DNA from: Eledone cirrhosa | Taxonomy: Eukaryota | Length of the DNA: 64,000 bases | Assembly (NCBI GenBank): GCA_964016885.1 | Contig: OZ024754.1 | Coordinates: 30,318,001-30,382,000 of the forward strand | Direction of reading: 5' to 3' | In this document: positions 10,386 to 64,000 of the stretch, piece by piece | Position numbering within the stretch: the stretch's first letter is position 1 | How the letters are laid out: every line of letters starts with the position of its first letter | The notes under the pieces: model-generated | What the model was told of the DNA's origin: nothing | The model's input: the letters and a program-made list of their open reading frames with translations, nothing else | The model's database searches: none | Program-made: the position numbers and the translations under genes

Positions 10386-10459
10386 TCAATTAACTTTGGT
10401 CTTCTTCAACATTTTCAACCTATACATCAATGACCTACTTTACATCATTTTAACAATGA

Positions 10460-14716: not shown

Positions 14717-15110
14717 GGAGGCACATGGCTTAGTGGTTAGAGCATTTGCCTTGCAATCGAAAGGTTGTGAGTTCAATTCTCAGACCGGGTGATGTGTTGT
14801 TTCCTTGAGCAAGACACTTTATTTCCCATTGCTCCAGTTTACTCAGCTGTAGAAATGAGATGATAGGGACTGGGGTCCATATCATTCCACTGCAAAGTGG
14901 TTGTGGAGGTGCCACGGCAATATAAGCACCCAGCCCACACTGTAAAGTGGACGTGTAGGTGCCACGGCAAAAAAGCACCCAGCACTCACTGTAAATGAGG
15001 TTGGTGTTAGGAAGGGCATCCAGCTGTAGAAATCAAGCCAGAATCAGTTCCCGTCCCACCCTTGCAAGCAGGGAAAAAGCGGACGTAAAATGAAATGGAA
15101 TGAAATGGAA
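14717..15110 (+). mobile_element. tRNA-derived SINE with RTE-type 3' tail
   Basis: A-box TGGCTTAGTGG (~14726) and B-box GTTCAATTC (~14771). The 3' end CCCGTCCCACCCTTGCAAGCAGGGAAAAAGCGGACGTAAAATGA matches the RTE end at 38955-39000. Confidence 0.85.
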
Positions 15111-21704: not shown

Positions 21705-23925
21705 CCAGTAGAAAAATAAAATAAAATTGACCAAGTCACACACAGTAGAAATAACAGAAAAAAGGGGGTAGAAATTGACCGGATCACACAAAGTAGGAAT
21801 AAGAGAAAAACGGGTTAGAAATTGACCAGCTCATACATAGTAAAAATAACAGAAAAAAGGGGGTAGAAATTGACCAGGTCACACATAGTAGGGATAACAG
21901 AAAAATGGGGGTAGAAATTGACCAGGTCACACAGTAGGAATAACAGAAAAATGGGGGTAGAAATTGACCAGGTCACACATAGTAGGAATAACAGAAAAAT
22001 GGGGGTAGAAATTGACCAGGTCACACATAGTAGGAATAACAGAAAAATGGGGGTAGAAATTGACCAGGTCACACAGTAGGAATAACAGAAAAACAGGGTA
22101 GAAATTGACCAGGTCACACAGTAGGAATTATGTAGAAAAACGGGGGTAGAAATTGACCAGGTCACACATAGTAGGAATAACAGAAAAATGGGGGTAGAAA
22201 TTGACCAGGTCACACATAGTAGAAATAACAGAAAAATGGGGGTAGAAATTGACCAGGTCATACATAGTAGGAATAACAGAAAAATGGGGGTAGGAATTGA
22301 CCAGCTCATACATAGTAAAACTAACAGAAAAAATGGGGTAGAAATTGACCAGGTCACACACAGTATAAATAACAGAAAAATGGGGAAGAAATTGACCAGG
22401 TCACACATAGTAGAAATAACAGAAAAATGGGGGTAGAAATTGACCAGGTCACACATAGTAGAAATAACAGAAAAATGGGGGTAGAAATTGACCAGGTCAC
22501 ACATAGTAGAAATAACAGAAAAATGGGGGTAGAAATTGACCAGGTCACACATAGTAGGAATAACAGAAAAAAGGGGGTAGAAATTGACCAGGTCACACAC
22601 AGTACAAATAACAGAAAAACAGGGTAGAAATTGACCAGGTTACACATAGTAGGAATAACAGAAAAAAGGGGGTAGAAATTGACCAGGTCACACACAGTAT
22701 AAATAACAGAAAAATGGGGGTAGAAATTGACCAGGTTACACATAGTAGGAATAACAGAAAAAAGGGGGTAGAAATTGACCAGGTCACACACAGTACAAAT
22801 AACAGAAAAACAGGGTAGAAATTGACCAGGTTACACATAGTAGGAATAACAGAAAAAAGGGGGTAGAAATTGACCAGGTCACACATAGTAGGAATAACAG
22901 AAAAATGGGGGTAGGAATTGACCAGCTCACACATAGTAGAAATAACAGAAAAAATGGGGTAGAAATTGACCAGGTCACACATAGTATAAATAACAGAAAA
23001 ATGGGGGTAGAAATTGACCAGGTTACACATAGTAGGAATAACAGAAAAATGGGGGTAGAAATTGACCAGCTCACACATAGTAGAAATAACAGAAAAATGG
23101 GGTAGAAATTGACCAGGTCACACATAGTAGGAATAACAGAAAAATGGGGGTAGAAATTGACCAGGTTACACAGTAGGAATAACAGAAAAATGGGGGTAGA
23201 AATTGACCAGGTTACACATAGTAGGAATAACAGAAAAATGGGGGTAGGAATTGACCAGCTCATACATAGTAAAACTAACAGAAAAAATGGGGTAGAAATT
23301 GACCAGGTCACACATAGTAGGAATAACAGAAAAATGGGGGTAGAAATTGACCAGGTTACACATAGTAGGAATAACAGAAAAATGGGGTAGAAATTGACCA
23401 GGTCACACATAGTAGGAATAACAGAAAAATGGGGGTAGGAATTGACCAGCTCATACATAGTAAAACTAACAGAAAAAATGGGGTAGAAATTGACCAGGTC
23501 ACACATAGTAGGAATAACAGAAAAATGGGGGTAGAAATTGACCAGGTTACACATAGTAGGAATAACAGAAAAATGGGGGTAGGAATTGACCAGGTCACAC
23601 ATAGTAGGAATAACAGAAAAATGGGGGTAGGAATTGACCAGGTTACACATAGTAGGAATAACAGAAAAATGGGGGTAGAAATTGACCAGGTTACACATAG
23701 TAGGAATAACAGAAAAATGGGGGTAGGAATTGACCAGGTCACACATAGTAGGAATAACAGAAAAATGGGGGTAGGAATTGACCAGCTCATACATAGTAAA
23801 ACTAACAGAAAAAATGGGGTAGAAATTGACCAGGTCACACATAGTAGGAATAACAGAAAAATGGGGAAGAAATTGACCAGGTTACACATAGTAGGAATTA
23901 TGTAGAAAAACGGGGTAGAAATGAG
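21705..23925. repeat. 48-bp minisatellite, about 46 copies
   Basis: Unit GAAATTGACCAGGTCACACATAGTAGGAATAACAGAAAAATGGGGGTA with frequent 1-2 nt indels. Confidence 0.97.
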
Positions 23926-25532: not shown

Positions 25533-26418
25533 CGAGGTGTGTCAGAAAAGTTCCAGGACTGATGTCACAAAAGATTTATTTCAAACCCAAACTTCACACT
25601 AAGAGTTTTCTCCTTCAAAGTAATCCCCCTGGAGTATGTAACTGTAAACTTAGCTCTCTGTAGCGATCAAATTTTTTTCTTCATAAATTTATATACATGT
25701 CCTCTGTTTCAGGTCGTCAAGTAATGAGCACAGAGCAACGAACAAACTTGTAGTTTCTGGTACGGTTGGGGAAAACTCCGTCAGAAGCACTGGGATTGCT
25801 GCAGCAAGTGTATGGAGATGAGACGATGTCACGCTCACGTGTTTTTGAGTGGTGCAAGATGACCCCAGGAGCGGAAGGCCCTCAACAACCAGGACTGAGG
25901 TCAATGTTGAGCGCGTCAGGCAGATGGTGCATAGCGATCGTCAGCTGACTGTTCGACTGATGGCAAATGAGCTGGGCATGAATCGGGACAGCGTCTGGAA
26001 GATTCTCACTGAAGATTTGGACATGCGGAAAGTCTGTACAAAGATGGTGCCAAAACTGCTGAACAATGACCAGAAGGGTCGACGCATGCAAGTGTGCCAG
26101 GACATCCTCGAGCATCTTGAAACCGAACCAGACTTGCTATGGACAATCATCACTGGTGATGAGTCATGGCTCTTCAAGTACGACCCGGAGGGGACCCGTT
26201 TTGAAGACGTGGATGACATCAAAAAGGCCATGACGACGGAACTGAGGAGGATCCCAGAAGAATCCTTCCAGGAGTGCATGCAAGCGTGGCAGAAAAGGAT
26301 GGAAAAGTGCATTAGACTCCAGGGGGATTACTTTGAAGGAGAAAACTCTTAGTGTGAAGTTTGGGTTTGAAATAAATCTTTTGTGACATCAGTCCTGGAA
26401 CTTTTCTGACACACCTCG
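25533..26418 (+). mobile_element. Internally deleted Tc1/mariner element with ~100-bp inverted ends and TA target duplication
   Basis: TA-CGAGGTGTGTCAGAAAAGTTCC ... GGAACTTTTCTGACACACCTCG-TA. Transposase remnants DDPRSGRP, WTIITGDESW, YDPE and GDYFEG are present; most of the catalytic domain is missing. Confidence 0.95.
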
Positions 26419-27284: not shown

Positions 27285-30200
27285 TAAACCTTAACCTTCT
27301 CGCTAACTACCCCATATCCCTCCCACCCGCCTCCACGCACCACCATTATTACGTGGGCCAATCATAAGTCAGCAGCCTATGCTATCACTTACCTGGTTGC
27401 CTTTCGATATGATGGATGGACTACGGAATTCTGGAGAGTTTGAAAAGAAAAAATCTGGACACTCGGTGACAATGCCAAAGATAACGACAAATGCTGCCGG
27501 ACGAAAAGACAAGGACTCCTCCTCTTTGTTTCGGCCGCGGATGGCCAACATAACCCCAACCCCATCCCCCTCACCCCTCCCCGCGCCCCACCGCTCCCAC
27601 CCACCAAACACAATCCAAAACTTCAGAGTTGGTACCATGAATGTAGGCACCTTAAAGGGTCGCTCTAACGAGGTTGTAGAAATGCTTGAACGTAAGGAGG
27701 TCGATGTTTGTTGTATTCAAGAGACCAGGTGGAGGGGTGAGTCTGCTAGATTCATTGTGGGTAAAGAACGATGTTATAAGCTTTTCTGGGTGGGAAATGA
27801 CAATGGGCTGGGTGGAGTAGGAATCATGGTAGCAGAAAAGTGGGCAGATAAGATAATAGACGTAAATAGAGTGAACGACAGAATAATTAAAATAAGACTT
27901 GTCCTCAATATAACTACTGTGACAATAATATCTGCATATGCACCACAATCCGGACTGCCTAGCGTTATAAAAGACAGATTCTATGAGACATTAATGCTCA
28001 CTACCTCCCAAATAACTGACAGTGACTACATAGTTATCGCTGGCGACCTAAATGGTCACGTTGGACAACATTGTGACGGCTATGACGGAATCCATGGAGG
28101 CTATGGGTTTGGTACTAGAAATGAGGAAGGCTCCAGAATCCTGGAATTCTGTGACGCAAATAACCTAACTATCTGTAACACTAACTTAAAAAAACGAGAC
28201 AATCACTTCATCACCTATAGATCGGGGGAACACACAAACCAGGTAGATTATATCCTTACCAGGAGACGTGACAGAGTGTCTGTTGTAAACACTAAATCCC
28301 TCCCCATGAAGAATGCACCTCTCAACATAAACTCATAATTAGCGGCCTCATAGTCAGGATGAGACATACTCACCAACAGAAGAGAACTATCCTCAGGAGA
28401 AAAATATCGAAGCTAAAGGACCCCACAGCCAGTAATAAATTTAAAAGCATATTACTTGATGCTTTCGACAGTAAGGAAGAGCAATTAGAGTCATACAATA
28501 TAGAGGAACAGTGGGAATTCCTGAAAGCTAACCTGCTGAAGGCGGCAGATGAAGTCTGTGGCTGGAGCAGGCCTATAGGCAGGAGAAGAGTAACGTGGTG
28601 GTGGAACAGTAAGGTGGAGGAGTCAATTAAGGCCAAAAAGCAGGCTTGGAAAGTATGGCGAGATGGGGGAAGTAGAGAAGACTATCAAGTGGCCAGGAGG
28701 GAAGCTAGGAGACAAGTGTACTTCGCAAGAAGGGAAGCAGAGGAAAGAAAGTTCAAGCATGTTCTACAATGTGAGGACCAAAAACGTGAGGTGTTCAGGA
28801 TTGCTAGGCAATGTGTCAAGGAAAACAGTGATATTGTCGGGGAGAAGTGTGTCCTTAATGATGATGGTGTACTTGCCATCACTGATGCTGATAAGAAGGA
28901 AGCTTGGAAGTGTCACTACAAAAGGCTACTAAATGAGGAGAATAATTGGGAGAAAGACAGTCTCCCCCACAACGACCCAATAGAGGGACCAGCAGTGCAA
29001 GTTGAAGGTAGTATAATAAGTAAGGCGATCAAAGACATGAAGACGGGCAAGGCGGCCGGGCCTTCGGAAATAGTTGCTGAAATGCTGAAAGCATCTGGAA
29101 CGGTGGGACACACTATGGTCACTCGGATAGTAAACCAAGTCATACAGAATGGGGTCGTTCCGAAGGACTGGCACAGCAGCATTATCATTAACTGCTACAA
29201 GGGTAAAGCTGATGCCCTAGATAGGGGAAACTATAGAGGCATTAAATTAATTGACCAGGTCATGAAGGTCACAGAAAAAGTAATAGCGCAACTAATCAGA
29301 GAGCGAATTGATCTAGACGAAATGCAATTCGGGTTTGTGTCAGGTAAAAGTACAACAGACGCTCTCTTCATTGTACGACAACTACATGAGAAGTACCTAG
29401 CTAAAAGTAAACCCCTATACTTAGCCTTTGTTGACTTGGAGAAAGCCTTTGACAGAGTACCCCGCTCGATTATCTGGTTGGCTCTTAGAAAACTAGGTGT
29501 TGATGAATGGCTTGTGAGAGCTATACAAGCCATGTATAAAGAAACAGTCAGCAAGGTTAGAATTAACAACGAATATAGTGAAAAGTTTAGCGTAAAAGTT
29601 GGTGTTCATCAGGGCTCCGTCCTTAGCCCCCTACTATTTATTATTGCCCTTCAGGCTATAACAGAAGAGTTCAAGACCAGCTGCCCATGGGAACTCCTAT
29701 ATGAAGATGATCTAACGCTCATAGCTGAATCAATGGCGGAACTAGAGAAGAAATTCCAAACATGGAAACATGGCCTAGAATCAAAAGGCCTTAAAGTTAA
29801 CTTGTCTAAGACTAAAGTTCTAGTTTGTAGGAAGGAAAATAGGGCACCGGTCCCATCTGGGAAATGGCCATGCTCAGTGTGTAGGAAAGGAATAGGCAGA
29901 AACTCCATTTTATGTCCCAAATGCAAAGTATGGGTGCATAAAAGATGTAGTGGGATCACAGGTAAGCTAACTAAGAATATAGATTTTATATGTGGCCGGT
30001 GCTATGGTACAATAAGTAGCAGCAAGTGCCCACAGTATACTAGCTCATTCCATTGCACAGATGGTTCTATAGAAATAGTGGACAGCTTCCGTTACCTGGG
30101 TGACAAAATCAGCAGTGGGGGAGGGTGCTCTGAAAGTACAGTAGCTAGAGTCAGAACGGGATGGAAAAAGTTCAGAGAGCTTATACCACTATTGGCCGCT

Positions 30201-31030
30201 AAAGGGTTCTCTCTAAAAATGAAAGGCAGGCTGTATGATGCCTGCATACGAACAGCAATGTTACATGGCAGTGAGACCTGGGCATTGTGTGCAGAGGATA
30301 TACGCAGACTGGAGCGAAACGAAGCTTGCATGCTCCGCTGGATGTGTAATAGTAATATACGTGAACGGCAAAGCATAAACGAACTAAGGGAGAAATTAGG
30401 AATAAGAGGAATCAGATGTTGTTTACTCGAGAGAAGACTACGTTGGTACGGTCACGTGATGCGCATGAAAGACGACAGCTGTATAAAAAAGTGCAGGGCG
30501 ATAAAAATAGACGGTAGCCACGGAGTAGGCAGACCCAGAAAAACCTGGGACGACTTGATAAATTCCGACCTGACACACTTACACCTCTCCAAGACAATGT
30601 CACTGGACCGAGATCTTTGGTGCTACACAGTTATACAGAAGACCCGTCTTGCCTAAGTACAAAGCGAAACCTACAGTCAGTAGGCACCTCTAACAAAATA
30701 CACCCCGTCCCACTACCCCCACTCCATCCACACCACCCCTTTCAATGTAAAGTTATGTTGGTACCACAACATCCAGTCCGAAACAAATGAGGTCATGTAG
30801 GTGTCACGACAAAAAAACACACAGTCCACGCTGTAATGTGGCCGTGTAGGTAACACGGTAAAAACCTCCCAGTCCACACTGTAAATGTGGTTGGTGTTAG
30901 GAAGGGCATCCAACCGTAGAAAACCCGCCAGACAGTCCTGAGCAAGACAACCAATCTTGCCTAAAGTGGACAATTCCTGTCCAGACCCATGCTAGCATGG
31001 AAAATGGACGTTAGATGATGATGATAATGA
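27285..31030 (+). mobile_element. Near full-length RTE-clade LINE (subfamily 1)
   Basis: APE and RT coding region, 3' UTR and (GAT)n tail at ~31015. The 5' boundary is approximate. Confidence 0.93.
27379..30656 (+). pseudogene. RTE ORF (AP endonuclease, reverse transcriptase, PHD-like zinc finger), disrupted
   Basis: APE motifs (TMNV, CCIQETRW, SAYAPQ, GDLNGHVG, QVDYIL) and RT motifs (QFGF, FVDLEKAFD, GVHQGSVLSP). Frameshift near 28305; YADD reads YEDD. Confidence 0.92.
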
Positions 31031-38032: not shown

Positions 38033-38039
38033 TAAATAT

Positions 38040-38900
38040 ATATAAGTATGTATACGTACATACATATATGTATACAGACGTACAGTAGTATGCATATATA
38101 TATATACTATATACATACATGCACATATATATATGTACGTATGGATTCACCGAACATTTATTATAATGCTCGGTGTGTTTGTAAACAAACATCCCGAATT
38201 AAGCCGTACAGTGTCTAGCAACCATCGTTGCTCATTTGTTCAACACTGACAAAGGAAAGCTGTACTAGTTTCAAGCTTATTAGCTATCGTCATAGCATAC
38301 GTACACATATATATGTGTGCATGTATGTATATATGTATATATATATATATATATGCATACTACTGTACGTCTGTATACATATATGTATGTATGTATACAT
38401 ACTTATATTTAAGTAACAGCCGTACTAAGAGTGAGAAATGAAATTTCGTTTCATTTTTTCCGTTTATCGTTTTCGGTACCCCGGTCGATTAACTCACTCG
38501 ATATGCAAATTAGGCTGCTCAGCCGTTAATATGCATAAGGAAAGTATATACTTTCAGACGTTCAACCATCTGGCAGGAAGGTATACGTTGCTGACGATAG
38601 CTAATAAGCTTGAAACTAGTACAGCGTTCCTTTGTCAGTGTTGAACAAATGAGCAACGATGGTTGCTAGACACTGTACGGGTTAATCCGGGATGTTTGTT
38701 TACAAACACACCGAGCATTATAAATGTTCGGTGAATCCATACGTACATATTTATATGTGTGCATGTATGTATATATGTATATATATATATGCATACTACT
38801 GTACGTCTGTATACATATATGTATGTACGTATACATGCTTATATTTAAGTAACAGCCGTACTAAGAGTGAGAAATGAAATTTTGTTTCATTTTTTATGTT
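38040..38900 (+). mobile_element. ~440-bp HHR-bearing retrozyme-like element: inverted truncated copy plus ~1.4 tandem units
   Basis: 38040-38292 is the reverse complement of 38592-38845. 38296-38466 repeats directly at 38738-38900. TA-rich tracts lie on both sides. Confidence 0.85.
38585..38627 (+). ncRNA. Minimal type I hammerhead ribozyme
   Basis: ACGTTG-CTGACGA-tAGCT aata AGCTt-GAAA-CTAG-TA-CAGCGT. Confidence 0.85.
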
Positions 38901-38933
<33 letters not shown>

Positions 38934-38935
<2 letters not shown>

Positions 38936-40745
38936 CATCATCATCATCATCATCATCATTTTACGTCCACTTTTCTCTGCTTGCAAGGGTGGGACGGGTC
39001 TTATTCAGCACAGCATCTCTCCACTCGTCACCTTCCCTCGTCATCTCCACCGTCAGCTTTAATGATCTGAGGCCTGTTCTCACCACCTCCGCCCATGTTT
39101 TTCGTGGTCTACCTCTACCACGTCTTCCTTCAACTGGCATTTCCTGGCACTTCTTCACACATCGGTTATCCTCCATGCGCATCACATGTCCATACCATCT
39201 CAGTCTCCTCTCTCGTACACTACATTCTATCCCTCTCAGACACAGTTTCTCTCTCAACACATTTATGCTGGGTCGTTCACGCACATTTACATTGCACATC
39301 CAACGGAGCATGCTTGCCTCATTTCTCTCCAGCCGTCACATATCCTCTGCAGTTGCTGCCCATGTCTCACTACCATGCAGCATCGCGCTCCTCACACAGG
39401 CATCATACAACCGCCCTTTCATACGCAGGGAGAAACCCTTCTTCGTCAACAGAGGAAGCAGCTCCCCAAACTTCTTCCAACCCGTCCTTATTATAGATAC
39501 TATGGCCTCGGAACACCCTCCTCCTATGCTAATCTGATCTCCTAGGTACTGGAAGCTATCCACCACTTCTATAGCGCCCTCCTGCATTTGAAAAATGTGT
39601 CTATCAATGCGACTTCTACTGTCTAATTTCCCTGTACATCTACTGCATACATATTTCTCCCTACCTGTTAGTTTGCCTGCTATCCCGCTACATCTCTTGT
39701 GTACCCAGGATCTGCATTGTGTGCATTTTATAGAATTTATGCCAGTTCCTTTTCTGCATATCGAACATGGCCATTTCCCTGACGGAATCAGGGTTTTGTC
39801 CTCTTTTCTACTCATCAACACTTTTGTCTTAGCTAGATTCACTCTCAGTCCTCTTGCTTCCAACTGCTGTTTCCATAGCCAGAATTTATTCTCTAGCTCC
39901 TCTACTGATTCTGCTATAAGAACCAGATCGTGAGCATAGAGAAGTTCCCATAGACAGCCAGTCTTAAACTCCTCTGTTATGGCTTGGAGGACTAGAATGA
40001 ACAAGAGCGGGCTGACGACCGAACCCTGATGTACTCCTACTTGTATCTGGAATTCCTCACTAAACTCCATTCCTACCCTGACTTTACTGAGAGTACCTCT
40101 GTACAAAGTTTGCACTGTCCTCACAAGCCATTCCTCAACACCTAGCTTCCTTAGGGACCACCAGATGACAGATCGGGGTACCCTATCAAAGGCCTTCTCT
40201 AGGTCAACAAAGGTTAAGTATAGTGGCTTATTCTTCTCTAAGAACCTCTCTTGCAATTGTCTCACCAAGAAGAAGGCATCTGTTGTACTCTTCCCAGGCA
40301 CAAAACCAAACTGCATCTCATCTAGTTTGACCCTTTCTCTAATTAGTTGTGCTAAAATCCTTTCTGCCACTTTCATAACCTGATCTATCAGTTTTATACC
40401 CCTATAATTGCTCCTCTCCAAAGCAAGCATCCCCTTTACCTTTGTAACAATTTATGAGAATACTGCTGCACCAGTCTTTGAGTATGACACCACCATATAT
40501 AGCGTGATTGATGATGCGTGCAACCAGTTTAGTGCCTACGTCCCCTGATGCCTTCAGCATCTCAGCAACTATTCCCAATGGTCCAGCAGCCTTACCATTT
40601 TTCATTTCCTTAATCGCCTCTTGGACCCTATATTGGTCTATCTCAATAGCTGGTCCCTCTGTCGGATCTACCAAGGGTAATTTATCTCTCTCCCATTCGT
40701 TTTCCACATTCATCAGTCTCTCATAATGACATTTCCAGGCCTCCG
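38934..40745 (-). mobile_element. 5'-truncated, frameshifted RTE LINE (subfamily 2)
   Basis: ORF pieces 40402-40812, 39336-40430 and 38961-39311 are homologous to the RT at 28359-30656. YADD reads YAHD; (GAT)n tail. Confidence 0.93.
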
Positions 40746-41117
40746 TTTTCAACTGTGAAAATTGCAAAGTTGATTGTCTGAAGATTGCGAAAGCATGAAA
40801 GTACTTGTTCAATTAACACTTAGAATTTAATATTCTATCATACTATTTCATTATAATACCATTATAAATTTTAAAGGATTGTAAATAAAACGAGTAAATC
40901 AGACAAAGTTGGAATTCCTCTTATTAATATAATCTTCTATACACAATCATACACACCCATGTATATTTATCTATCTATATATATATATACATATATATAT
41001 ACATATATAAATACATATATATACATATATATACATACATATATATACATATCTGTATATGCATACATACACACAAACACTCTCATACGCACACACACCT
41101 ATATGTGTGTGTGTCTG

Positions 41118-41248: not shown

Positions 41249-41297
<49 letters not shown>

Positions 41298-41584
41298 CAA
41301 ATAACGAAACGAAATTAAATTTCGTTTCGTTTGTAACTCACTTTTGTATGACTGACGCTTAAACAATTAAGTTAAAAATGTACATCCACATATGTATACT
41401 GAAATACTAGTATGCATATGAATACACACACGTGTACATATGTAGATGTACCGAGTTTTCACTGGTCACTTTACTGTGAGTGTCCAGCTATTCCGTATGT
41501 AGACACACAGACAAACCGGTTCTTAGAGTCATACTGGTTTTTGAGGAAACACCTTTCCTCTATTCTCCAGAAAGCCAGACAAGG

Positions 41585-41629
41585 AATATTGGACTAGTTT
41601 CGATGTTGTTACATCTCATCAGCAATATT
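41585..41629 (-). ncRNA. Type I hammerhead ribozyme; same motif starts at 42050, 42515, 42980, 43445, 43910
   Basis: Reverse complement of AATATTG-CTGATGA-GATGT aaca ACATC-GAAA-CTAG-TC-CAATATT. Confidence 0.93.
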
Positions 41630-44180
41630 TACCTATCTTCCGGCTTCTCTAGAGAATCGTGAAAGCACATATCGTTATATGCTTTTTCTATGAAAATTAG
41701 TAGTGGGCAGACCAATTTGCATAGAGCGTGAGTACGTACCGGTTCAACGGAGACGATAAAAACAAATAACGAAACGAAATTAAATTTCGTTTCGTTTGTA
41801 ACTCACTTTTGTATGACTGACGCTTAAACAATTAAGTTAAAAATGTACATCCACATATGTATACTGAAATACTAGTATGCATATGAATACACACACGTGT
41901 ACATATGTAGATGTACCGAGTTTTCACTGGTCACTTTACTGTGAGTGTCCAGCTATTCCGTATGTAGACACACAGACAAACCGGTTCTTAGAGTCATACT
42001 GGTTTTTGAGGAAACACCTTTCCTCTATTCTCCAGAAAGCCAGACAAGGAATATTGGACTAGTTTCGATGTTGTTACATCTCATCAGCAATATTTACCTA
42101 TCTTCCGGCTTCTCTAGAGAATCGTGAAAGCACATATCGTTATATGCTTTTTCTATGAAAATTAGTAGTGGGCAGACCAATTTGCATAGAGCGTGAGTAC
42201 GTACCGGTTCAACGGAGACGATAAAAACAAATAACGAAACGAAATTAAATTTCGTTTCGTTTGTAACTCACTTTTGTATGACTGACGCTTAAACAATTAA
42301 GTTAAAAATGTACATCCACATATGTATACTGAAATACTAGTATGCATATGAATACACACACGTGTACATATGTAGATGTACCGAGTTTTCACTGGTCACT
42401 TTACTGTGAGTGTCCAGCTATTCCGTATGTAGACACACAGACAAACCGGTTCTTAGAGTCATACTGGTTTTTGAGGAAACACCTTTCCTCTATTCTCCAG
42501 AAAGCCAGACAAGGAATATTGGACTAGTTTCGATGTTGTTACATCTCATCAGCAATATTTACCTATCTTCCGGCTTCTCTAGAGAATCGTGAAAGCACAT
42601 ATCGTTATATGCTTTTTCTATGAAAATTAGTAGTGGGCAGACCAATTTGCATAGAGCGTGAGTACGTACCGGTTCAACGGAGACGATAAAAACAAATAAC
42701 GAAACGAAATTAAATTTCGTTTCGTTTGTAACTCACTTTTGTATGACTGACGCTTAAACAATTAAGTTAAAAATGTACATCCACATATGTATACTGAAAT
42801 ACTAGTATGCATATGAATACACACACGTGTACATATGTAGATGTACCGAGTTTTCACTGGTCACTTTACTGTGAGTGTCCAGCTATTCCGTATGTAGACA
42901 CACAGACAAACCGGTTCTTAGAGTCATACTGGTTTTTGAGGAAACACCTTTCCTCTATTCTCCAGAAAGCCAGACAAGGAATATTGGACTAGTTTCGATG
43001 TTGTTACATCTCATCAGCAATATTTACCTATCTTCCGGCTTCTCTAGAGAATCGTGAAAGCACATATCGTTATATGCTTTTTCTATGAAAATTAGTAGTG
43101 GGCAGACCAATTTGCATAGAGCGTGAGTACGTACCGGTTCAACGGAGACGATAAAAACAAATAACGAAACGAAATTAAATTTCGTTTCGTTTGTAACTCA
43201 CTTTTGTATGACTGACGCTTAAACAATTAAGTTAAAAATGTACATCCACATATGTATACTGAAATACTAGTATGCATATGAATACACACACGTGTACATA
43301 TGTAGATGTACCGAGTTTTCACTGGTCACTTTACTGTGAGTGTCCAGCTATTCCGTATGTAGACACACAGACAAACCGGTTCTTAGAGTCATACTGGTTT
43401 TTGAGGAAACACCTTTCCTCTATTCTCCAGAAAGCCAGACAAGGAATATTGGACTAGTTTCGATGTTGTTACATCTCATCAGCAATATTTACCTATCTTC
43501 CGGCTTCTCTAGAGAATCGTGAAAGCACATATCGTTATATGCTTTTTCTATGAAAATTAGTAGTGGGCAGACCAATTTGCATAGAGCGTGAGTACGTACC
43601 GGTTCAACGGAGACGATAAAAACAAATAACGAAACGAAATTAAATTTCGTTTCGTTTGTAACTCACTTTTGTATGACTGACGCTTAAACAATTAAGTTAA
43701 AAATGTACATCCACATATGTATACTGAAATACTAGTATGCATATGAATACACACACGTGTACATATGTAGATGTACCGAGTTTTCACTGGTCACTTTACT
43801 GTGAGTGTCCAGCTATTCCGTATGTAGACACACAGACAAACCGGTTCTTAGAGTCATACTGGTTTTTGAGGAAACACCTTTCCTCTATTCTCCAGAAAGC
43901 CAGACAAGGAATATTGGACTAGTTTCGATGTTGTTACATCTCATCAGCAATATTTACCTATCTTCCGGCTTCTCTAGAGAATCGTGAAAGCACGTGAAAG
44001 CAAGTGAGTTACAAACGAAACGAAATTTAATTTCGTTTCGTTATTTGTTTTTATCGTCTCCGTTGAACCGGTACGTACTCACGCTCTATGCAAATTGGTC
44101 TGCCCACTACTAATTTTCATAGAAAAAGCATATAACGATATGTGCTTTCACGATTCTCTAGAGAAGCCGGAAGATAGGTA

Positions 44181-44225
44181 AATATTGCTGATGAGATGTA
44201 ACAACATCGAAACTAGTCCAATATT
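44181..44225 (+). ncRNA. Type I hammerhead ribozyme; same motif starts at 44646 and 45111
   Basis: 7-bp stem I, CUGAUGA, 5-bp stem II, GAAA, palindromic stem III ACUAGU and a GUC triplet (predicted cleavage after 44218). Confidence 0.93.
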
Positions 44226-45514
44226 CCTTGTCTGGCTTTCTGGAGAATAGAGGAAAGGTGTTTCCTCAAAAACCAGTATGACTCTAAGAACCGGTTTGTC
44301 TGTGTGTCTACATACGGAATAGCTGGACACTCACAGTAAAGTGACCAGTGAAAACTCGGTACATCTACATATGTACACGTGTGTGTATTCATATGCATAC
44401 TAGTATTTCAGTATACATATGTGGATGTACATTTTTAACTTAATTGTTTAAGCGTCAGTCATACAAAAGTGAGTTACAAACGAAACGAAATTTAATTTCG
44501 TTTCGTTATTTGTTTTTATCGTCTCCGTTGAACCGGTACGTACTCACGCTCTATGCAAATTGGTCTGCCCACTACTAATTTTCATAGAAAAAGCATATAA
44601 CGATATGTGCTTTCACGATTCTCTAGAGAAGCCGGAAGATAGGTAAATATTGCTGATGAGATGTAACAACATCGAAACTAGTCCAATATTCCTTGTCTGG
44701 CTTTCTGGAGAATAGAGGAAAGGTGTTTCCTCAAAAACCAGTATGACTCTAAGAACCGGTTTGTCTGTGTGTCTACATACGGAATAGCTGGACACTCACA
44801 GTAAAGTGACCAGTGAAAACTCGGTACATCTACATATGTACACGTGTGTGTATTCATATGCATACTAGTATTTCAGTATACATATGTGGATGTACATTTT
44901 TAACTTAATTGTTTAAGCGTCAGTCATACAAAAGTGAGTTACAAACGAAACGAAATTTAATTTCGTTTCGTTATTTGTTTTTATCGTCTCCGTTGAACCG
45001 GTACGTACTCACGCTCTATGCAAATTGGTCTGCCCACTACTAATTTTCATAGAAAAAGCATATAACGATATGTGCTTTCACGATTCTCTAGAGAAGCCGG
45101 AAGATAGGTAAATATTGCTGATGAGATGTAACAACATCGAAACTAGTCCAATATTCCTTGTCTGGCTTTCTGGAGAATAGAGGAAAGGTGTTTCCTCAAA
45201 AACCAGTATGACTCTAAGAACCGGTTTGTCTGTGTGTCTACATACGGAATAGCTGGACACTCACAGTAAAGTGACCAGTGAAAACTCGGTACATCTACAT
45301 ATGTACACGTGTGTGTATTCATATGCATACTAGTATTTCAGTATACATATGTGGATGTACATTTTTAACTTAATTGTTTATATATATATATATATATATC
45401 AAAGGATACATAATCTCTGTAAAATAAAGCATAAAATTCTACCTTGCCTTATTTCTTTTTTCAGTGAGTCATTCACATAGATTATATTCAACAACACCAA
45501 TACAAGCACCAGTG

Positions 45515-48425
45515 CTCCCACCACCACCACAGCCAGCACTACCACCAACACAACCACCACCACCACCACAGCCAGCACTACCACCAACACAACCACCACC
45601 ACCACCACAGCGAGCGCTACCACCAACACAACCACCACCACCACCACCACAGCCAGCACTACCACCAACACAACCACCACCACCACCACAGCCAGCATTA
45701 CCACCAACACAACCACCACCACCACCACAGCCAGCACTACCACCAACACAACCACCACCACCACCACAGCCAGCACTACCACCAACACAACCACCACCAC
45801 CACCACAGCCAGCGCTACCACCAACACAACCACCACCACCACCACCACCACAGCCAGCACTACCACCAACACAACCACCACCACCACCACAGCGAGCGCT
45901 ACCACCAACACAACCACCACCACCACCACCACAGCCAGCACTACCACCAACACAACCACCACCACCACCACAGCCAGCATTACCACCAACACAACCACCA
46001 CCACCACCACAGCCAGCACTACCACCAACACAACTACCACCACCACCACAGCCAGCGCTACCACCAACACAACCACCACCACCACAGCCAGCGCTGCCAC
46101 CACCACAACCACCACCACCACAGCCAGCACTACCACCAACACAACCACCACCACCACCACAGCCAGCGCTACCACCAACACAACCACCACCACCACCACA
46201 GCCAGCGCTACCACCAACACAACCACCACCACCACCACAGCCAGCACTACCACCAACACAACCACCACCACCACCACAGCCAGCGCTACCACCAACACAA
46301 CCACCACCACCACCACAGCCAGCACTACCACCAACACAACCACCACCACCACCACAGCCAGCACTACCACCAACACAACCACCACCACCACCACAGCCAG
46401 CGCTACCACCAACACAACCACCACCACCACCACAGCCAGCACTACCACCAACACAACCACCACCACCACCACAGCCAGCACTACCACCAACACAACCACC
46501 ACCACCACCACAGCCAGCGCTACCACCAACACAACCACCACCACCACCACAGCGAGCGCTACCACCAACACAACCACCACCACCACCACAGCCAGCACTA
46601 CCACCAACACAACCACCACCACCACCACAGCCAGCGCTACCACCAACACAACCACCACCACCACCACAGCCAGCGCTACCACCAACACAACCACCACCAC
46701 CACCACAGCCAGCACTACCACCAACACAACCACCACCACCACCACAGCCAGCGCTACCACCAACACAACCACCACCACCACAGCCAGCGCTACCACCAAC
46801 ACAACCACCACCACCACCACAGCCAGCACTACCACCAACACAACCACCACCACCACCACAGCCAGCACTACCACCAACACAACCACCACCACCACCACAG
46901 CCAGCACTACCACCAACACAACCACCACCACCACCACAGCCAGCACTACCACCAACACAACCACCACCACCACCACAGCCAGCGCTACCACCAACACAAC
47001 CACCACCACCACCACAGCCAGCGCTACCACCAACACAACCACCACCACCACCACAGCCAGCGCTACCACCAACACAACCACCACCACCACCACAGCCAGC
47101 ATTACCACCAACACAACCACCACCACCACCACAGCCAGCGCTACCACCAACACAACCACCACCACCACCACAGCCAGCACTACCACCAACACAACCACCA
47201 CCACCACCACAGCCAGCACTACCACCAACACAACCACCACCACCACCACAGCCAGCGCTACCACCAACACAACCACCACCACCACCACAGCCAGCATTAC
47301 CACCAACACAACCACCACCACCACCACAGCCAGCACTACCACCAACACAACCACCGCCACCACCACAGCCAGCGCTACCACCAACACAACCACCACCACC
47401 ACCACAGCCAGCACTACCACCAACACAACCACCACCACCACCACAGCCAGCACTACCACCAACACAACCACCACCACCACCACAGCCAGCGCTACCACCA
47501 ACACAACCACCACCACCACCACAGCGAGCGCTACCACCAACACAACCACCACCACCACCACCACAGCCAGCGCTGCCACCAACACAACCACCACCACCAC
47601 CACCACAGCCAGCGCTGCCACCACCACAACCACCACCACCACCACCACCACCACAGCCAGCGCTGCCACCAACACAACTACCACCACCACCACAGCCAGC
47701 GCTACCACCAACACAACCACCACCACCACAGCCAGCGCTACCACCAACACAACCACCACCACCACAGCCAGCGCTACCACCAACACAACCACCACCACCA
47801 CCACAGCCAGCATTACCACCAACACAACCACCACCACCACCACAGCCAGCACTACCACCAACACAACCACCACCACCACCACAGCCAGCGCTACCACCAA
47901 CACAACCACCACCACCACCACAGCCAGCACTACCACCAACACAACCACCACCACCACCACAGCCAGCACTACCACCAACACAACCACCACCACCACCACA
48001 GCCAGCGCTACCACCAACACAACCACCACCACCACCACAGCCAGCGCTACCACCAACACAACCACCACCACCACCACAGCGAGCGCTACCACCAACACAA
48101 CCACCACCACCACCACCACAGCCAGCGCTGCCACCAACACAACCACCACCACCACCACCACAGCCAGCGCTGCCACCACCACAACCACCACCACCACCAC
48201 CACCACCACAGCCAGCGCTGCCACCAACACAACTACCACCACCACCACAGCCAGCGCTACCACCAACACAACCACCACCACCACAGCCAGCGCTACCACC
48301 AACACAACCACCACCACCACAGCCAGCGCTACCACCAACACAACCACCACCACCACAGCCAGCGCTGCCACCACCACAACCACCACCACCACTACAGCCA
48401 GCACTACTACCACCACCACCACCAC
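45515..48425. repeat. ~33-bp CCA-rich minisatellite
   Basis: Unit CAGCCAGC(A/G)CTACCACCAACACAACCACCACCACCA with variable CCA count. Confidence 0.95.
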
Positions 48426-53733: not shown

Positions 53734-53772
<39 letters not shown>

Positions 53773-54029
53773 GTAGGAGGTGAGTTTTATTGTAGTACAA
53801 TAAAGCAATGCAGATATCGGATAAGAAGCACTCTACAGTTTGTGGGACTGGAGTATGCATAATATAAGATCAAAAGATGGTTAAAGGAGTTCCATATATT
53901 TTATTATGCGCATTTCAAAAACAAACATCATCAAACAATAATATTTGTGTTTTCATCAGATAAAACAGGAGAACATGATATGAAGGCTAAAAAACACTTG
54001 TTGATAGTGCAGTTTTAAATCAACATATG

Positions 54030-54503
54030 TTATCTATAGATAACACTAGATCACTCATTAATAATCTCTCTAATTGCAACTGCCGCATTAAAAATAAATG
54101 TCCTCTCAACAACCATTGCCTCGATAAAAACTTAATTTATGAATGTAAAATTATAACTAGCACCAATTCCTTCACCTATTTTGGCTCCACTTCCACCTCT
54201 TTTAAAGCTCGTCTCTATAATCATCATTCATCTTTCAAATACAAACTTAAAAGAACTAACACTGCTCTCTCAGAACTCATATGGTCCTTAAAAGACAAAA
54301 ACATTAAATATAACATCTTTTGGAAAAAGATTTCTTCTGCATCCTCATACTTGAACAGCTCTCTATCTAAAATCTGTAATCTCTGCCTAAATGAAAAATT
54401 TACCATTATCTCTAACCTAGAATCCATAATAAATAGACGCTCAGATTTGTTTTCTATCTGCCTGCATAAATTCCATCGAACTTTTCACAAAGTATACAGT
54501 TAA
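54030..54503 (+). pseudogene. C-terminal GIY-YIG endonuclease of a Penelope-like element (RT lost by truncation)
   Basis: CNCR..CPL...C linker, LIY-x-YFG, FKAR...H, CNLCLNEK, INRRSDL...CLH. The ATG at 54027 comes from the inverted arm. Confidence 0.88.
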
Positions 54504-55482
54504 TATTCAATTCTTTATCAATTTAGAATCTTTTCTCAAAGGCACATATACATACACCTCTTTAAAATATACCCATCTACCTTACTTTAAAGGGCATTAT
54601 ACACTCTATAATACTCGTTTACTCATTACCCTCATTCTATCTTCTCGTAAAACAATAACATTTGTTTTTGACATTTTGAATATTCATCCGCAATCATTAT
54701 TATTTTTTCTCTCTATCATAAATCTTTTTAATCTGAATTTCATCCTTAATTTATTATTATTTTTTTCTCCCCATCAACGAACTCATTATTAATACATATG
54801 AATTCAATATACAAACTTTAACTTCACATTATTTTTCTCAAATCCTTCTACACATAAACCTTAACATTTTTCTCTTTGCTAATTTTGAAATTGCCACTAT
54901 ACATACATTTTTTCTTTTGACGTTAGAATATTCACCCACAATTATTATTTTTTCTCTCTATCTTCATACATAATTTCCCTTCGTTAATTTTCAAATTCCT
55001 TTAATTTATACATTATCTTCCAACGGTTCCCAACCTCTCTATATTAAAACATTATATCTTTTTCTCAGTTATAAAAACTATCTCTTTCTCTCTATCACCC
55101 ATCTCTCCCTTTCCACCTTCACTCTCATCTCCTCCCCCTTTTTTTTTCATCCTTTCCACCCCACCCCCCCTCCCTAAATAAAATATTTTTTCCTCGCACA
55201 TATCCTCCCTTCGTTAATTTTCAAAATTTTTAATTTATACAGTATCTTCCAACGGTTTTCAACCCCTCTATATAAAATATATCTCCTCTCAGTTATAAAA
55301 ACTATCTCTTTCTCTCTATCACCCATCTCTCCCTCTCATCTCCTTCCCTTTTCATCCTTCCCCCCCCTCTCTAAATAAAATATTTTTCCCAATATCACAC
55401 ATCAATCTAAAACCACTTTCCATATGTTGATTTAAAACTGCACTATCAACAAGTGTTTTTTAGCCTTCATATCATGTTCTCC

Positions 55483-55553
55483 TGTTTTATCTGATGAAAA
55501 CACAAATATTATTGTTTGATGATGTTTGTTTTTGAAATGCGCATAATAAAATA
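55483..55553 (+). ncRNA. Type I hammerhead in the Penelope-like pseudo-LTR (mirror copy 53897-53967, minus strand)
   Basis: TGTTTTAT-CTGATGA-long stem II-GAAA-TGCGCA-TA-ATAAAATA; palindromic stem III ATGCGCAT. Confidence 0.85.
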
Positions 55554-55583
55554 TATGGAACTCCTTTAACCATCTTTTGATCT

Positions 55584-55622
<39 letters not shown>

Positions 55623-57800: not shown

Positions 57801-57807
<7 letters not shown>

Positions 57808-58456
57808 ATACTTGGGGAGGGTCATATTTGTGTAATATTGCCAGAATTAATAACAGAACACACTCACTGTTTGGTTGGTTTTCGCTTCTCGCTTCTGTGT
57901 CTTTTATATCGGTAATCTAACTTACTCGGTCCTCAATGTTGCCATTGACTGACCGACGGTCAAAAATAATACAGATACAATATAGACACAAACACATATA
58001 TATAGTTTATCATAAATCTTTCGTTGGACATTTGCAACATCGTCAGTGGTGCTATATTTTCCTCCTGTTGTATTGTATGTCTACGCTATTTTTATTCTTA
58101 TTTTTATATAGACAGACTGAATAAAAATGGCCTAGACATACAATACAACAGGAGGAAAATATAGCACCACTGACGATGTTGCAGATGTGCAACGAAAGAT
58201 TTATGATAAACTATATATATGTGTTTGTGTCTATATTGTATCTGTATTATTTTTGACCGCCGGTCAGTCAGTGGCAACATTGAGGACCGAGTAAGTTAGA
58301 TTACCGATATAAAAGACACAGAAGCGAGAAGCGAAAACCAACCAAACAGTGAGTGTGTTCTGTTATTAATTCTGGCAATATTACACAAATATGACCCTCC
58401 CCAAGTATAACAATATTTGTTTCGACACACGATTTCATACAAAAAACCTCACAAAA

Positions 58457-58460
<4 letters not shown>
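57801..58460. mobile_element. Foldback element with ~290-bp arms and a hammerhead-like core, in (TA)n
   Basis: 57801-58097 is the reverse complement of 58119-58415. CTGACGA-tGTTGCA gatg TGCAAC-GAAA at 58170-58197. Another copy lies at 63700-64000. Confidence 0.85.
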
Positions 58461-61948: not shown

Positions 61949-63617
61949 CATCATCATCATCATCATCAACGTTTAACGTCCGTGTTCCACGCTTGCATGG
62001 GTTTGGACGGGGGTAGTCCCACTTGAGGCAAGCTCGCATAGGACTGTCTGGCAGGTTTTCTACAGTTGGATGCCCTTCCTAACACCAACCACATTTACAG
62101 TGTGGGTCTGGGAGGTTTTTACCGTGTTGCCTACACGGCCACATTACAGCGTGGACTGTGTGTTTTTTTGTCGTGACACCTACACGATCTCATTTGTTTC
62201 GGCCTGGATGGCACGGCACCAACATAACTTTACATAGAACGGGGTGGTGTGGATGGGGTGGGGGTGGTGGCGGGACGGGGTGTATTTTGTTAGAGATGCC
62301 TACTGGCAAGGCGGGTCTTCTCTGTTACTGAGTACCGCCAAAGGTCTCGGTCCAGTGACATTGTCTTGGAGAGGTGTAAGTGTGTGAGGTCGGAGTTTAT
62401 CAGCTCATCCCATGTTTTTCTAGGTCTGCCTATTCCGTGGCTACCGTCTATCTTTATTGCCCTGCACTTTGTTATACAGCTATCGACTTTCATGCGCATC
62501 ACGTGTCCATACCAACGCAGCCTTCTCTCGAGTAAACAACATCTGATCCCTCTTATCTCTAATTTTTTCCTTAGTTCGTTTATGCTTTGCCGTTCACGTA
62601 TATTACTGTTACACATCCAGCGGAGCATGCAAGCTTCGTTCCTCTCTAGTCTGCGTATATCCTCTGCACACAATGCCCAGGTCTCACTGCCATGCAACAT
62701 TGCTGTTCGTATGCAGGCATCGTACAACCTGCCTTTCTTTTTTAGGGAGAACCCTTTAGCAGCTAATAGTGGTATAAGCTCTCTGAACTTTTTCCAACCA
62801 GTTCTGACTCTAGCTACAGTACTTTCAGAGCACCCTCCCCCACTGCTGATTTTATCGCCCAGGTAACGGAAGCTGTCCACTATTTCTATAGAACCCTCTG
62901 CGCAATTGAAAGAGCTAGTATTTTGTGGGCACTTGCTGCTACTTATTGCACCAGAACACCGGCCACATGTAAAATCTATGTTCTTAGTTAGCTTACCTGT
63001 GATCCCACTACATCTTTTATGCACCCATACTTTGCATTTAGGACATAAAATGGAGTTTCTACCTACGCCTTTCCTACACACCGAGCACGACCATTTCCCA
63101 GAAGGGACCGCCGCCTTGTTTTCTTTCCTACAAACTAGAACTTCGGTCTTAGCCAGGTTAATTTTAAGTCCTTTTGACTCTAGGCCGTGCTTCCATGTTT
63201 GGAATTTCTTCTCTAGCTCGGCCATTGATTCCGCTATGAGTGTCAGGTCGTCTGCGTATAGGAGTTCCCATGGGCAGCCTGTCTTGAACTCCTCTGTTAT
63301 AGCCTGAAGGGCAATAATAAATAGTAGGGGGCTGAGAACAGAGCCCTGATGGACGCCAACTTTTACGCTAAACTCTTCACTATATTCGTTGTTAATTCTA
63401 ACCTTGCTGACTGTTTCTTTATACATGGCTTGTATAGCTCTCACAAGCCATTCGTCAACGCCTAGTTTTCTAAGAGCCCACCAGATAATGGAGCGGGGGA
63501 CTCTGTCGAAGGCTTTCTCCAGGTCGACAAAAGCTAAGTAGAGGGGTCTACCTTTAGCTAGGTACTTCTCCTGTAGTTGTCGTACTATGAAAAGGGCGTC
63601 TGTGGTGCTTTTGCCTG
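61945..63617 (-). mobile_element. 5'-truncated RTE subfamily 1 copy
   Basis: ORF 62290-63444 closely matches the C-terminal half of 28359-30656 and retains YADD; (GAT)n tail. Confidence 0.95.
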
Positions 63618-63699
63618 ATATATATATATATATATATATGTATGTATATATATATGTATGTATATATATATATGTATATATATATATATGTATGTATAT

Positions 63700-64000
63700 A
63701 TATTGTTATATTTGGAGAGGGTCATATTTGCGTAATATTGCCAGAATTAATAACAGAACACACTCACTGTTTGGTTGGTTTTCGCTTCTCGCTGTCTTTT
63801 ATATATATATATCTGCGATCTAACTTACTCGGTCCTCAATGTTGCCATTGACTGACCGGCGGTCAAAAATAATACAGATACAATATAGACAAACACATAT
63901 ATATGTAGTTTACATAATTTACATAAATCTTTCGTTGCACATCTGCAACATCGTCAGTGGTGTTATATTCATTGTTCCTCCTGTTGTGTTGTATGTCTAC
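63700..64000 (-). mobile_element. Second copy of the 57801 hammerhead-like foldback family, cut by window end
   Basis: Matches 57801-58083; core TTTCGTTGCACATCTGCAACATCGTCAG at ~63930-63957. Confidence 0.85.

What the first reader, a model, noticed from the sequence alone, without database searches (positions are those of the whole stretch)
41291..45380. Multimeric 465-bp hammerhead retrozyme array with central inversion, inserted in (TA)n
Seen: about 8.8 units with no differences I could find, each with a fully paired minimal type I HHR (9 in total) and several further hairpins. 5.8 units point left and 3.0 point right, so both 3' ends run into (TA)n. Established: metazoan non-LTR retrozymes are tandem HHR repeats processed to monomeric or circular RNA; minimal HHRs with palindromic stem III can act as dimers; Penelope-like insertions often carry an inverted 5'-truncated copy. 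Inference: a single recent insertion made by rolling-circle reverse transcription of a 465-nt circular RNA by a Penelope-like RT. The retrozyme concept is known, but this family and its inverted multimer layout may be undescribed.
Basis: partly seen in the sequence, partly recalled or inferred. Interest (0 to 1): 0.92.

Follow-up and report, generated by a model that had tools for sequence, protein, structure and literature searches.

The report
Hammerhead retrozyme inserted as paired multimers
This is one of roughly two thousand recent copies of a small self-cutting RNA parasite in an animal genome; most copies examined were pasted in as two back-to-back runs of repeats started at two fixed points, a pattern that fits a Penelope-type reverse transcriptase copying a circular RNA round and round, a mechanism proposed in print but not shown in the papers seen.

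Summary
Observation confirmed: two head-to-head arms (5.81 and 2.97 identical 465-nt units, 9 type I hammerheads) sit in (TA)n. The family is young and genome-wide (1,909 exact 3' junctions in the 3.0-Gb assembly). New here: the two arms end at two different fixed sites 70 nt apart, never at the ribozyme cut. Of 62 insertions, 45 pair site A with site B; none pairs A/A or B/B. An intact Hydra-clade Penelope-like element in the same genome follows the same rule (18 of 18), matching the two start sites reported in vitro for a lizard element. Circle evidence comes from sister loci: one A>G change fills all 21 copies on both arms of one locus and occurs nowhere else; an A>G-rich block repeats in three consecutive units of another. 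Four of six such variants tested were not unique. Best reading: a non-LTR retrozyme copied by double target-primed, rolling-circle reverse transcription. Cleavage, the circle and the partner enzyme are not shown. The class is known; this family and the paired-end rule were not in the papers seen. The scan noted a ribozyme-free analogue in another genome (e1-7881736).

The parts
41252..41290 (.). (TA)n target, left side
41291..43993 (-). Left arm, 5.81 identical units; 3' end at site A (301 nt after the ribozyme cut), 5' end at unit position 389
43994..44001 (.). 8-bp insert at the head-to-head junction, a copy of the adjacent end of the left arm
44002..45380 (+). Right arm, 2.97 identical units; 5' end at unit position 249, 3' end at site B (232 nt after the cut)
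45381..45399 (.). (TA)n target, right side
44170..44241 (+). Type I hammerhead, first plus-strand copy: stem I 44181-44187 with 44219-44225, core 44188-44194, stem II 44195-44208, palindromic helix III 44212-44217, predicted cut after 44218. Further copies + 44635-44706, 45100-45171; - 41569-41640, 42034-42105, 42499-42570, 42964-43035, 43429-43500, 43894-43965
   Evidence: compensatory pairs against an older relative
44219..44683 (+). One unit from cut to cut, the predicted 465-nt monomer RNA; 37% GC, no reading frame over 64 codons on either strand
44442..44519 (+). Internal copy of the stretch between site B (unit 224-232) and site A (unit 297-301), holding a 13-bp hairpin at about 44479-44507: the equivalent of the Penelope 'tail'

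Best explanation
A young non-autonomous, non-LTR retrozyme that borrows the machinery of a Penelope-like element (PLE), most likely a Hydra-clade one. Steps: (1) an array is transcribed on the hammerhead strand (inferred); (2) neighbouring hammerheads cut it to 465-nt monomers, probably as dimers through the palindromic helix III (inferred from structure and conservation); (3) a monomer is ligated to a circle (inferred); (4) the PLE protein cuts both strands of a (TA)n tract, and each freed DNA end primes reverse transcription on the RNA, one at site A and one at site B, on either side of a conserved hairpin (paired end positions shown, chemistry inferred); (5) both polymerases run on through the ribozyme junction for zero to 18 units (shown as arm lengths; rolling-circle copying inferred); (6) the two cDNA ends are joined head to head by end-joining with short overlaps or short inserts (junctions shown, pathway inferred). 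The window's insertion is one such event.
For: End rule: 45 of 62 insertions are two-armed with one end at A and one at B, 0 A/A, 0 B/B, 0 tail-to-tail; 29 of 29 among loci not picked by their ends (chance 4e-9 if each end chose freely). Coordinates alone on the first 93 Mb of C1: 37 outward A/B pairs, 0 A/A, 1 B/B candidate that proved to be two insertions of different subfamilies fused at the hairpin. Forward-strand counts of A and B junctions are alike, 949 and 979. An intact 821-residue open frame with Hydra motifs (DKT, CxCX5C, CxxC, CxH) has 150 of 150 scored matches at 99-100% identity, inserts in (TA)n and shows the same two-site rule in 18 of 18 insertions with both ends seen. PMC11167929 (parts 1-2 of 4) reports that a PLE protein cuts and extends both strands and starts at two internal sites that bound the tail. 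Single-monomer template: A>G at unit position 96 stands in 21 of 21 copies on both arms of C3:205.54 Mb and at no other place in the assembly; a block with 13 of 14 A>G differences from its nearest sampled unit repeats identically in three consecutive units of L171 and is found only there. Variants fixed in all copies of one sampled locus are 16 A>G against 4 T>C on the hammerhead strand (p 0.007), whereas single-unit variants are 10 against 12: the pattern of A-to-I editing of a sense RNA. 5' ends are not at the cut (2 of 90). Hammerhead stems I and II show two-sided changes in 6 of 16 pairs between this family and an older relative, with the core invariant.
Against: No RNA, circle or cleavage was seen. 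Four of six locus-fixed variants checked genome-wide were sub-lineage markers present at 7 or more places, so most 'private' variants in a 74-locus sample prove nothing. The A>G excess leans on one locus: without L171 it is 9 against 4 (p 0.17), and by locus 7 against 4; edited sites are only somewhat more paired than average (0.74 against 0.59). The autonomous element shows no A>G excess (2 A>G, 6 T>C of 17). No sequence link ties the retrozyme to the dominant Hydra family or to 30 other Hydra-type loci. Eight insertions are single-armed and three have one odd end. L078 and L065+66 show repeated unit-level variants, a sign of some DNA-level duplication or assembly mixing. PMC11167929 found that hammerhead cleavage was not needed for insertion in vitro, and the 2026 preprint saw cleavage in 1 of 9 frog dimers.
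Confidence: 0.68

Rival explanations
1. Same PLE-driven double priming, but on long uncleaved linear transcripts of existing arrays; the hammerhead is a passenger or works only occasionally, and no circle is needed.
For: Arms pass the cut site freely, which an uncleaved multimer also allows; arrays of 10-18 units exist as possible sources; PMC11167929 found unprocessed RNA to be the dominant substrate in vitro; four of six tested variants are shared by several loci.
Against: A new change on a linear multimer would sit in one unit, yet one change fills 21 of 21 copies at a single locus and an edited block repeats in three units at another, with no source array in the assembly. Arm length could only shrink from one generation to the next without a separate amplifying step. 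The ribozyme is conserved with compensatory changes.
Confidence: 0.2
2. Short copies are inserted first and then grow in place by unequal crossover or gene conversion, as a minisatellite (the route proposed in preprint 10.64898/2026.07.22.740005).
For: Repeated unit-level variants in L078 and L065+66; many insertions are shorter than two units.
Against: Both arms would have to expand separately at dozens of loci before any mutation arose: this locus and six others have all units identical to each other and to the window unit, and arm-fixed differences are 0 in 9 of 10 loci with at least two full units per arm. Most unit-level variants are singletons.
Confidence: 0.07
3. The reverse transcriptase jumps end to end on a linear cleaved monomer (as R2 enzymes do; recalled), or the inversion arises by self-priming on an antisense transcript (proposed in PMC3846280).
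For: A jump back onto the same molecule would also copy one variant into all units; three junctions fall at the palindromic hairpin (L059, L073, L088).
Against: Junctions across the cut are clean (9 of 9 here) and arms do not stop there. Both outer ends join (TA)n at fixed sites, which self-priming does not explain; the A>G bias is on the hammerhead strand, not the antisense strand.
Confidence: 0.04
4. Assembly artefact: collapsed or mis-joined repeats.
For: Perfect identity of units; no contig laid spans the arm.
Against: The same layout with different arm lengths, junctions and variants at dozens of loci on many contigs; the same rule in an unrelated coding element. Only the exact unit count at this locus stays unverified.
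Confidence: 0.01

Closest known systems
Metazoan non-LTR retrozymes (Cervera and de la Pena 2020, PMC7229834; coral, mussel, axolotl)
   Same: Non-coding tandem unit under 50% GC, one type I hammerhead per unit, highly folded, co-existing with PLEs; helix III like axolotl HHR_Amex1; a circular template copied to tandem cDNA is their proposed model (sections 14, 15, 17 read).
   Different: 465 nt, slightly above their 150-450 bp; inserted as two inverted multimer arms with paired fixed ends in (TA)n. The words 'inverted', 'microsatellite' and 'octopus' do not occur in the main text; its figures and supplements were not seen.
Penelope-like elements, Hydra clade (Craig et al. 2021, PMC8557442) and Poseidon PAc (Frangieh et al. 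2024, PMC11167929)
   Same: Partial tandems, inverted 5'-truncated copy, a tail at one end only, (TA)n targets, hammerhead in the terminal repeat; two internal start sites bounding the tail.
   Different: No coding frame; the tail is about 70 nt rather than 30-40; both arms are often many units long; strict pairing of the two sites is counted here, not in the passages read.
Vertebrate non-LTR retrozymes as PLE derivatives (Li, Clavereau, Pollet, bioRxiv 10.64898/2026.07.22.740005)
   Same: Non-autonomous, hammerhead-bearing tandem repeats tied to PLEs (parts 1-3 of 5 read).
   Different: That study proposes local amplification by unequal crossover and finds homology to PLE terminal repeats; it samples no mollusc and does not treat inversions or tails. 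Here arrays appear to arrive ready-made and no homologous PLE repeat was found.
LINE-1 twin priming (recalled; search listing only)
   Same: Two target-primed starts, head-to-head junction with short overlaps or inserts.
   Different: In L1 the second start is at variable places and the two parts do not overlap; here both starts are fixed, and in the autonomous Hydra element both arms copy the same 3' region.

Membership tests
non-LTR retrozyme | Short non-coding unit in head-to-tail tandem copies, GC under 50% | tested here: met
   465 nt, 37% GC, longest frame 64 codons
non-LTR retrozyme | One type I hammerhead per unit | tested here: met
   9 of 9 cores; Rfam HH9 E 2.2e-7 but below gathering score; compensatory changes
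non-LTR retrozyme | Dispersed, mobile, many loci | tested here: met
   1,630 exact hammerhead words, 1,909 exact site-A junctions, identical units on several contigs
non-LTR retrozyme | No LTR, PBS or PPT | tested here: inconclusive
   Ends are internal unit positions joined to (TA)n, no terminal direct repeat other than the unit; PBS and PPT were not searched
non-LTR retrozyme | Self-cleavage of the transcript | not testable with these tools
   Structure only; dimer fold is only slightly more stable than two monomers (-75.4 against 2 x -36.5 kcal/mol)
non-LTR retrozyme | Accumulates as linear and circular monomer RNA | tested here: inconclusive
   No direct data; indirect support from all-copy variants at 2 of 6 tested loci
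PLE-mobilised element | Inverted 5'-truncated copy at the 5' end; tail at one end only | tested here: met
   45 of 62 insertions A/B, none A/A or B/B
PLE-mobilised element | (TA)n target preference (Hydra, Naiad) | tested here: met
   Both ends in TA-rich tracts in the 45 A/B insertions and in 6 of 8 single-armed ones
PLE-mobilised element | Intact, young autonomous partner in the genome | tested here: met
   821-residue frame, 150 of 150 scored matches near-identical, same end rule 18 of 18
PLE-mobilised element | Sequence shared with the partner's terminal repeat | tested here: not met
   No match to the dominant Hydra element's end or to 30 other Hydra-type loci; many families (18,752 motif matches) remain unexamined
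viroid-like or HDV-like circular RNA | Ribozymes in both polarities, rod-like fold | tested here: not met
   Hammerhead core on one polarity only, branched fold

The most novel reading that the evidence does not exclude
The genome preserves direct fossils of the Penelope replication cycle: one PLE complex engages a single circular ribozyme RNA at two fixed sites, both cut target strands prime, and two polymerases roll round the same circle, so that even A-to-I edits on that one RNA molecule are written into every unit of the new insertion. This would explain PLE pseudo-LTRs, partial tandems, inverted heads and the one-sided tail by one mechanism, give the hammerhead its role, and show RNA edits becoming heritable DNA through a circular intermediate.
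Probability: 0.5. Interest if true: 0.87.

Novelty: new variant of a known kind. Interest (0 to 1): 0.68.

Why it matters
How Penelope-like elements make their tandem and inverted insertions, and what their hammerheads do, is called undefined in the 2021 and 2024 papers read. Three published ideas compete: a circular template (PMC4209133, PMC7229834), antisense self-priming (PMC3846280) and local amplification (2026 preprint). This family gives about two thousand young events with a short unit, so the ideas can be scored from sequence, and it supplies a 465-nt RNA, two mapped start sites, a (TA)n target and an intact candidate enzyme for an in vitro test. A reverse transcriptase that primes both strands of a cut site and copies a circle many times would also be of interest for RNA-templated insertion.

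Tried and rejected
Sequencing runs: no RNA holder listed (6 runs of unrecorded kind, 4 studies); this says nothing on expression. Laying 4 of them: two hold a single contig one unit plus 30 bases long (495 and 496 nt), the shape of a closed loop, which tandem DNA gives as well as a circle; not used as evidence. Rfam microRNA and DUF3800-I matches are low-complexity or chance hits below gathering. Viroid-like origin rejected (one polarity, branched fold). Coding potential rejected. Search for the partner by homology: only chance neighbouring retrozyme copies. Pfam found nothing for the Hydra frame; the ESM Atlas gave unnamed clusters with RT, GIY-YIG and HTH_animal families on part of their members, so the clade call rests on motifs from PMC8557442 section 11. 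'Private' variants as proof of a circle: 4 of 6 failed the genome-wide check. L071 (two copies inside a larger inverted duplication) was left out of the variant count; the 15 stretches were picked from known end pairs and are not in the 62-insertion tally. Empty sites and relatives could not be examined (no related genome is held). Papers: ten searches listed no report of a cephalopod retrozyme, of paired fixed ends in retrozymes, or of editing marks copied into all units; subscription journals, Repbase/Dfam, figures and supplements were not seen and may hold such a report; the paper on dimer cleavage of PLE hammerheads (PMC5785218) is not held.

Full report
Observation. The array is as described. 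The left arm (41291-43993, 5.81 units) and right arm (44002-45380, 2.97 units) are exact substrings of one 465-nt unit, in opposite directions, with an 8-bp copied insert between them and (TA)n outside. Each unit has one type I hammerhead: nine cores, Rfam HH9 at E 2.2e-7 but under the gathering score, predicted cut after 44218. The unit folds far better than shuffles (z = -8.8) into a branched structure, has no frame over 64 codons, and has no hammerhead on the other strand. In an alignment of 14 copies from this family and an older relative, the core is invariant and 6 of 16 named pairs change on both sides; the sequences are related, so this counts few independent events.

The family. The window lies in a 3.0-Gb animal assembly. 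That it looks like an octopus is my recollection from its LINEs and microsatellites and was not tested. A DNA search scored 25 of 554 candidate places and listed 150 of 266 matches. Exact-word counts give 1,630 hammerheads and 1,909 junctions of one fixed unit position with (TA)n; both are lower bounds. Subfamilies differ from the window unit by 0 to 44 substitutions; seven other loci (L031-L037) have no fixed difference from it.

The end rule. Numbering from the ribozyme cut, 3' ends fall at site A (297-301) or site B (224-232), on either side of a 13-bp hairpin. I examined 62 insertions: 21 from the best DNA matches (window included), 21 from the hammerhead list on C1, and 20 picked for having an A end. 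Of these, 45 are two-armed with one A and one B end; 3 are two-armed with one odd end; 8 are single-armed; 2 lie in a larger inverted duplication; 4 were cut by the stretch end or a gap (two of those later showed a B end). None is A/A, B/B or tail to tail. Among loci not picked by their ends the count is 29 of 29; among those picked for an A end, 16 of 16 have B opposite, some with a B arm of only 7-20 bases. Coordinates alone give 37 outward A/B pairs, no A/A pair and one B/B candidate, which is two insertions of different subfamilies fused at the hairpin. The 45 central junctions measured show overlaps in 28, blunt joins in 4 and inserts in 13; overlaps of 20 bases or more reflect hairpins in the unit. 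Only 2 of 90 5' ends lie at the ribozyme cut, against 1.5 expected.

The machinery. A 5'-truncated PLE at 53771-55591 of the window has the same layout. Its endonuclease matches 150 of 150 scored places at 99-100% identity among 61,218 candidates, many in an open 821-residue frame. The frame has DKT, CxCX5C, CxxC and CxH motifs and a hammerhead-like motif in its 3' repeat, as listed for the Hydra clade (PMC8557442 section 11). In 18 of 20 insertions both ends could be seen, and all 18 pair its own site A with its own site B, 90 nt apart. PMC11167929 reports that a purified Poseidon protein cuts and extends both strands of AT-rich DNA and starts at two internal sites that bound the genomic tail. 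The retrozyme's ends are therefore PLE ends. Which PLE family acts on it is open: a Hydra motif pattern has 18,752 matches (control 16) and neither the dominant family nor 30 other loci share sequence with the unit.

Circle or linear multimer. Arms cross the cut site many times, so the template was either a ligated monomer or an uncleaved multimer. A change on one monomer would fill every unit only if that monomer was copied repeatedly. In 74 loci, 29 variants were fixed in all copies of one locus and seen in no other sampled locus: 16 A>G and 4 T>C on the hammerhead strand, against 10 and 12 among 167 single-unit variants (p 0.007 and 0.029). Six were checked across the assembly. Two are unique: position 96 A>G in 21 of 21 copies, 10 on one arm and 11 on the other, at one locus, and the A>G-rich block of L171, identical in three consecutive units. 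Four are sub-lineage markers found at 7 or more places, among them a three-A>G cluster that has spread to seven loci. Without L171 the bias is 9 against 4 and not significant, and the autonomous element shows no such bias, although its two arms share 17 private variants in 11 loci. So the circle rests mainly on two clear cases, on the homogeneity of both arms within loci, and on the conserved ribozyme; a lost or unassembled source array cannot be excluded. That A-to-I editing gives sense-strand A>G after reverse transcription, and is intense in cephalopods, is established knowledge recalled, not taken from a call.

Mechanism and odds. Retrozyme moved by PLE machinery with two priming events: about 0.9. 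Circular monomer as the usual template: about 0.7. Both arms from the same molecule: supported by the 21-copy case, otherwise inferred. Cleavage as a dimer is inferred from the single-pair palindromic helix III, as for axolotl HHR_Amex1.

Comparison with print. Non-LTR retrozymes, their circles and a rolling-circle model are published (PMC7229834 abstract and sections 14, 15, 17; PMC4209133 passages; PMC7761336 passages); the model is offered there as a hypothesis. Inverted heads and one-sided tails are published for PLEs (PMC8557442 and PMC3846280, passages), as are multicopy non-autonomous Chlamys elements. The 2026 preprint ties retrozymes to PLE repeats but proposes local amplification. 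In ten searches and these readings I found no cephalopod retrozyme, no count of paired ends, and no editing marks used to infer the template; repeat databases, figures, supplements and subscription journals were not seen.

Verdict. Real, and a member of a known class on the features that could be tested, with an insertion anatomy not described for that class in what I could read. Its value lies in making the PLE cycle and the role of the hammerhead testable. Interest 0.68.

Noticed in passing
window 53771-55591: 5'-truncated Hydra-clade Penelope-like element with C-terminal GIY-YIG region (53991-54503), inverted head, hammerhead-like motif in both terminal repeats, (TA)n on both sides; belongs to a very abundant young family with intact 821-residue frames and a unit of about 3.7-3.9 kb that also occurs in tandem.
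   Followed up: yes
window 38037-38905: Older relative of the retrozyme (about 67% identical, unit about 440 nt) with an intact hammerhead at 38591, the same inverted layout and B/A-type ends; further copies turned up in the flanks of at least nine fetched loci.
   Followed up: partly
window 57803-58460 and 63704-64000: A third element with inverted arms in (TA)n, a hammerhead-like core (58170, 58046, 63957) and two different 3' ends about 45 nt apart; probably another PLE end or non-autonomous family.
   Followed up: no
G000 genome-wide (L135-L164): 18,752 matches to one spelling of the Hydra CxCX5C linker, from a dozen or more families: Hydra-clade elements appear to be a major part of this genome, whereas PMC8557442 describes the clade from a small number of families.
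   Followed up: partly
L174 (C1:67842031-67845000): Two retrozyme insertions of different subfamilies fused at the palindromic hairpin, with both A ends lost.
   Followed up: yes
L050, L034, L073, L041: Arms with internal jumps (template switches) between unit positions, for example 330 to 445-449 twice in L050.
   Followed up: no
L169 and L170 (C1:55.97 and 55.99 Mb); L071: Retrozyme insertions duplicated together with their flanks, that is, later segmental or inverted duplications.
   Followed up: no
window 27307-30656, 38961-40812, 62290-63705: RTE-like LINE copies with a PHD finger inside the reverse transcriptase frame (Pfam RVT_1 and PHD).
   Followed up: partly
window 1-10386, 17745-20732, 21724-23922, 45518-48425: Long minisatellites of 37, 89, 48 and 39 bp; the 39-bp array begins 120 bp right of the retrozyme.
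   Followed up: no
window 25849-26352 and 14726-14783: Mariner-like transposase remnant (recognised from memory) and a weak tRNA match, probably a SINE head.
   Followed up: no
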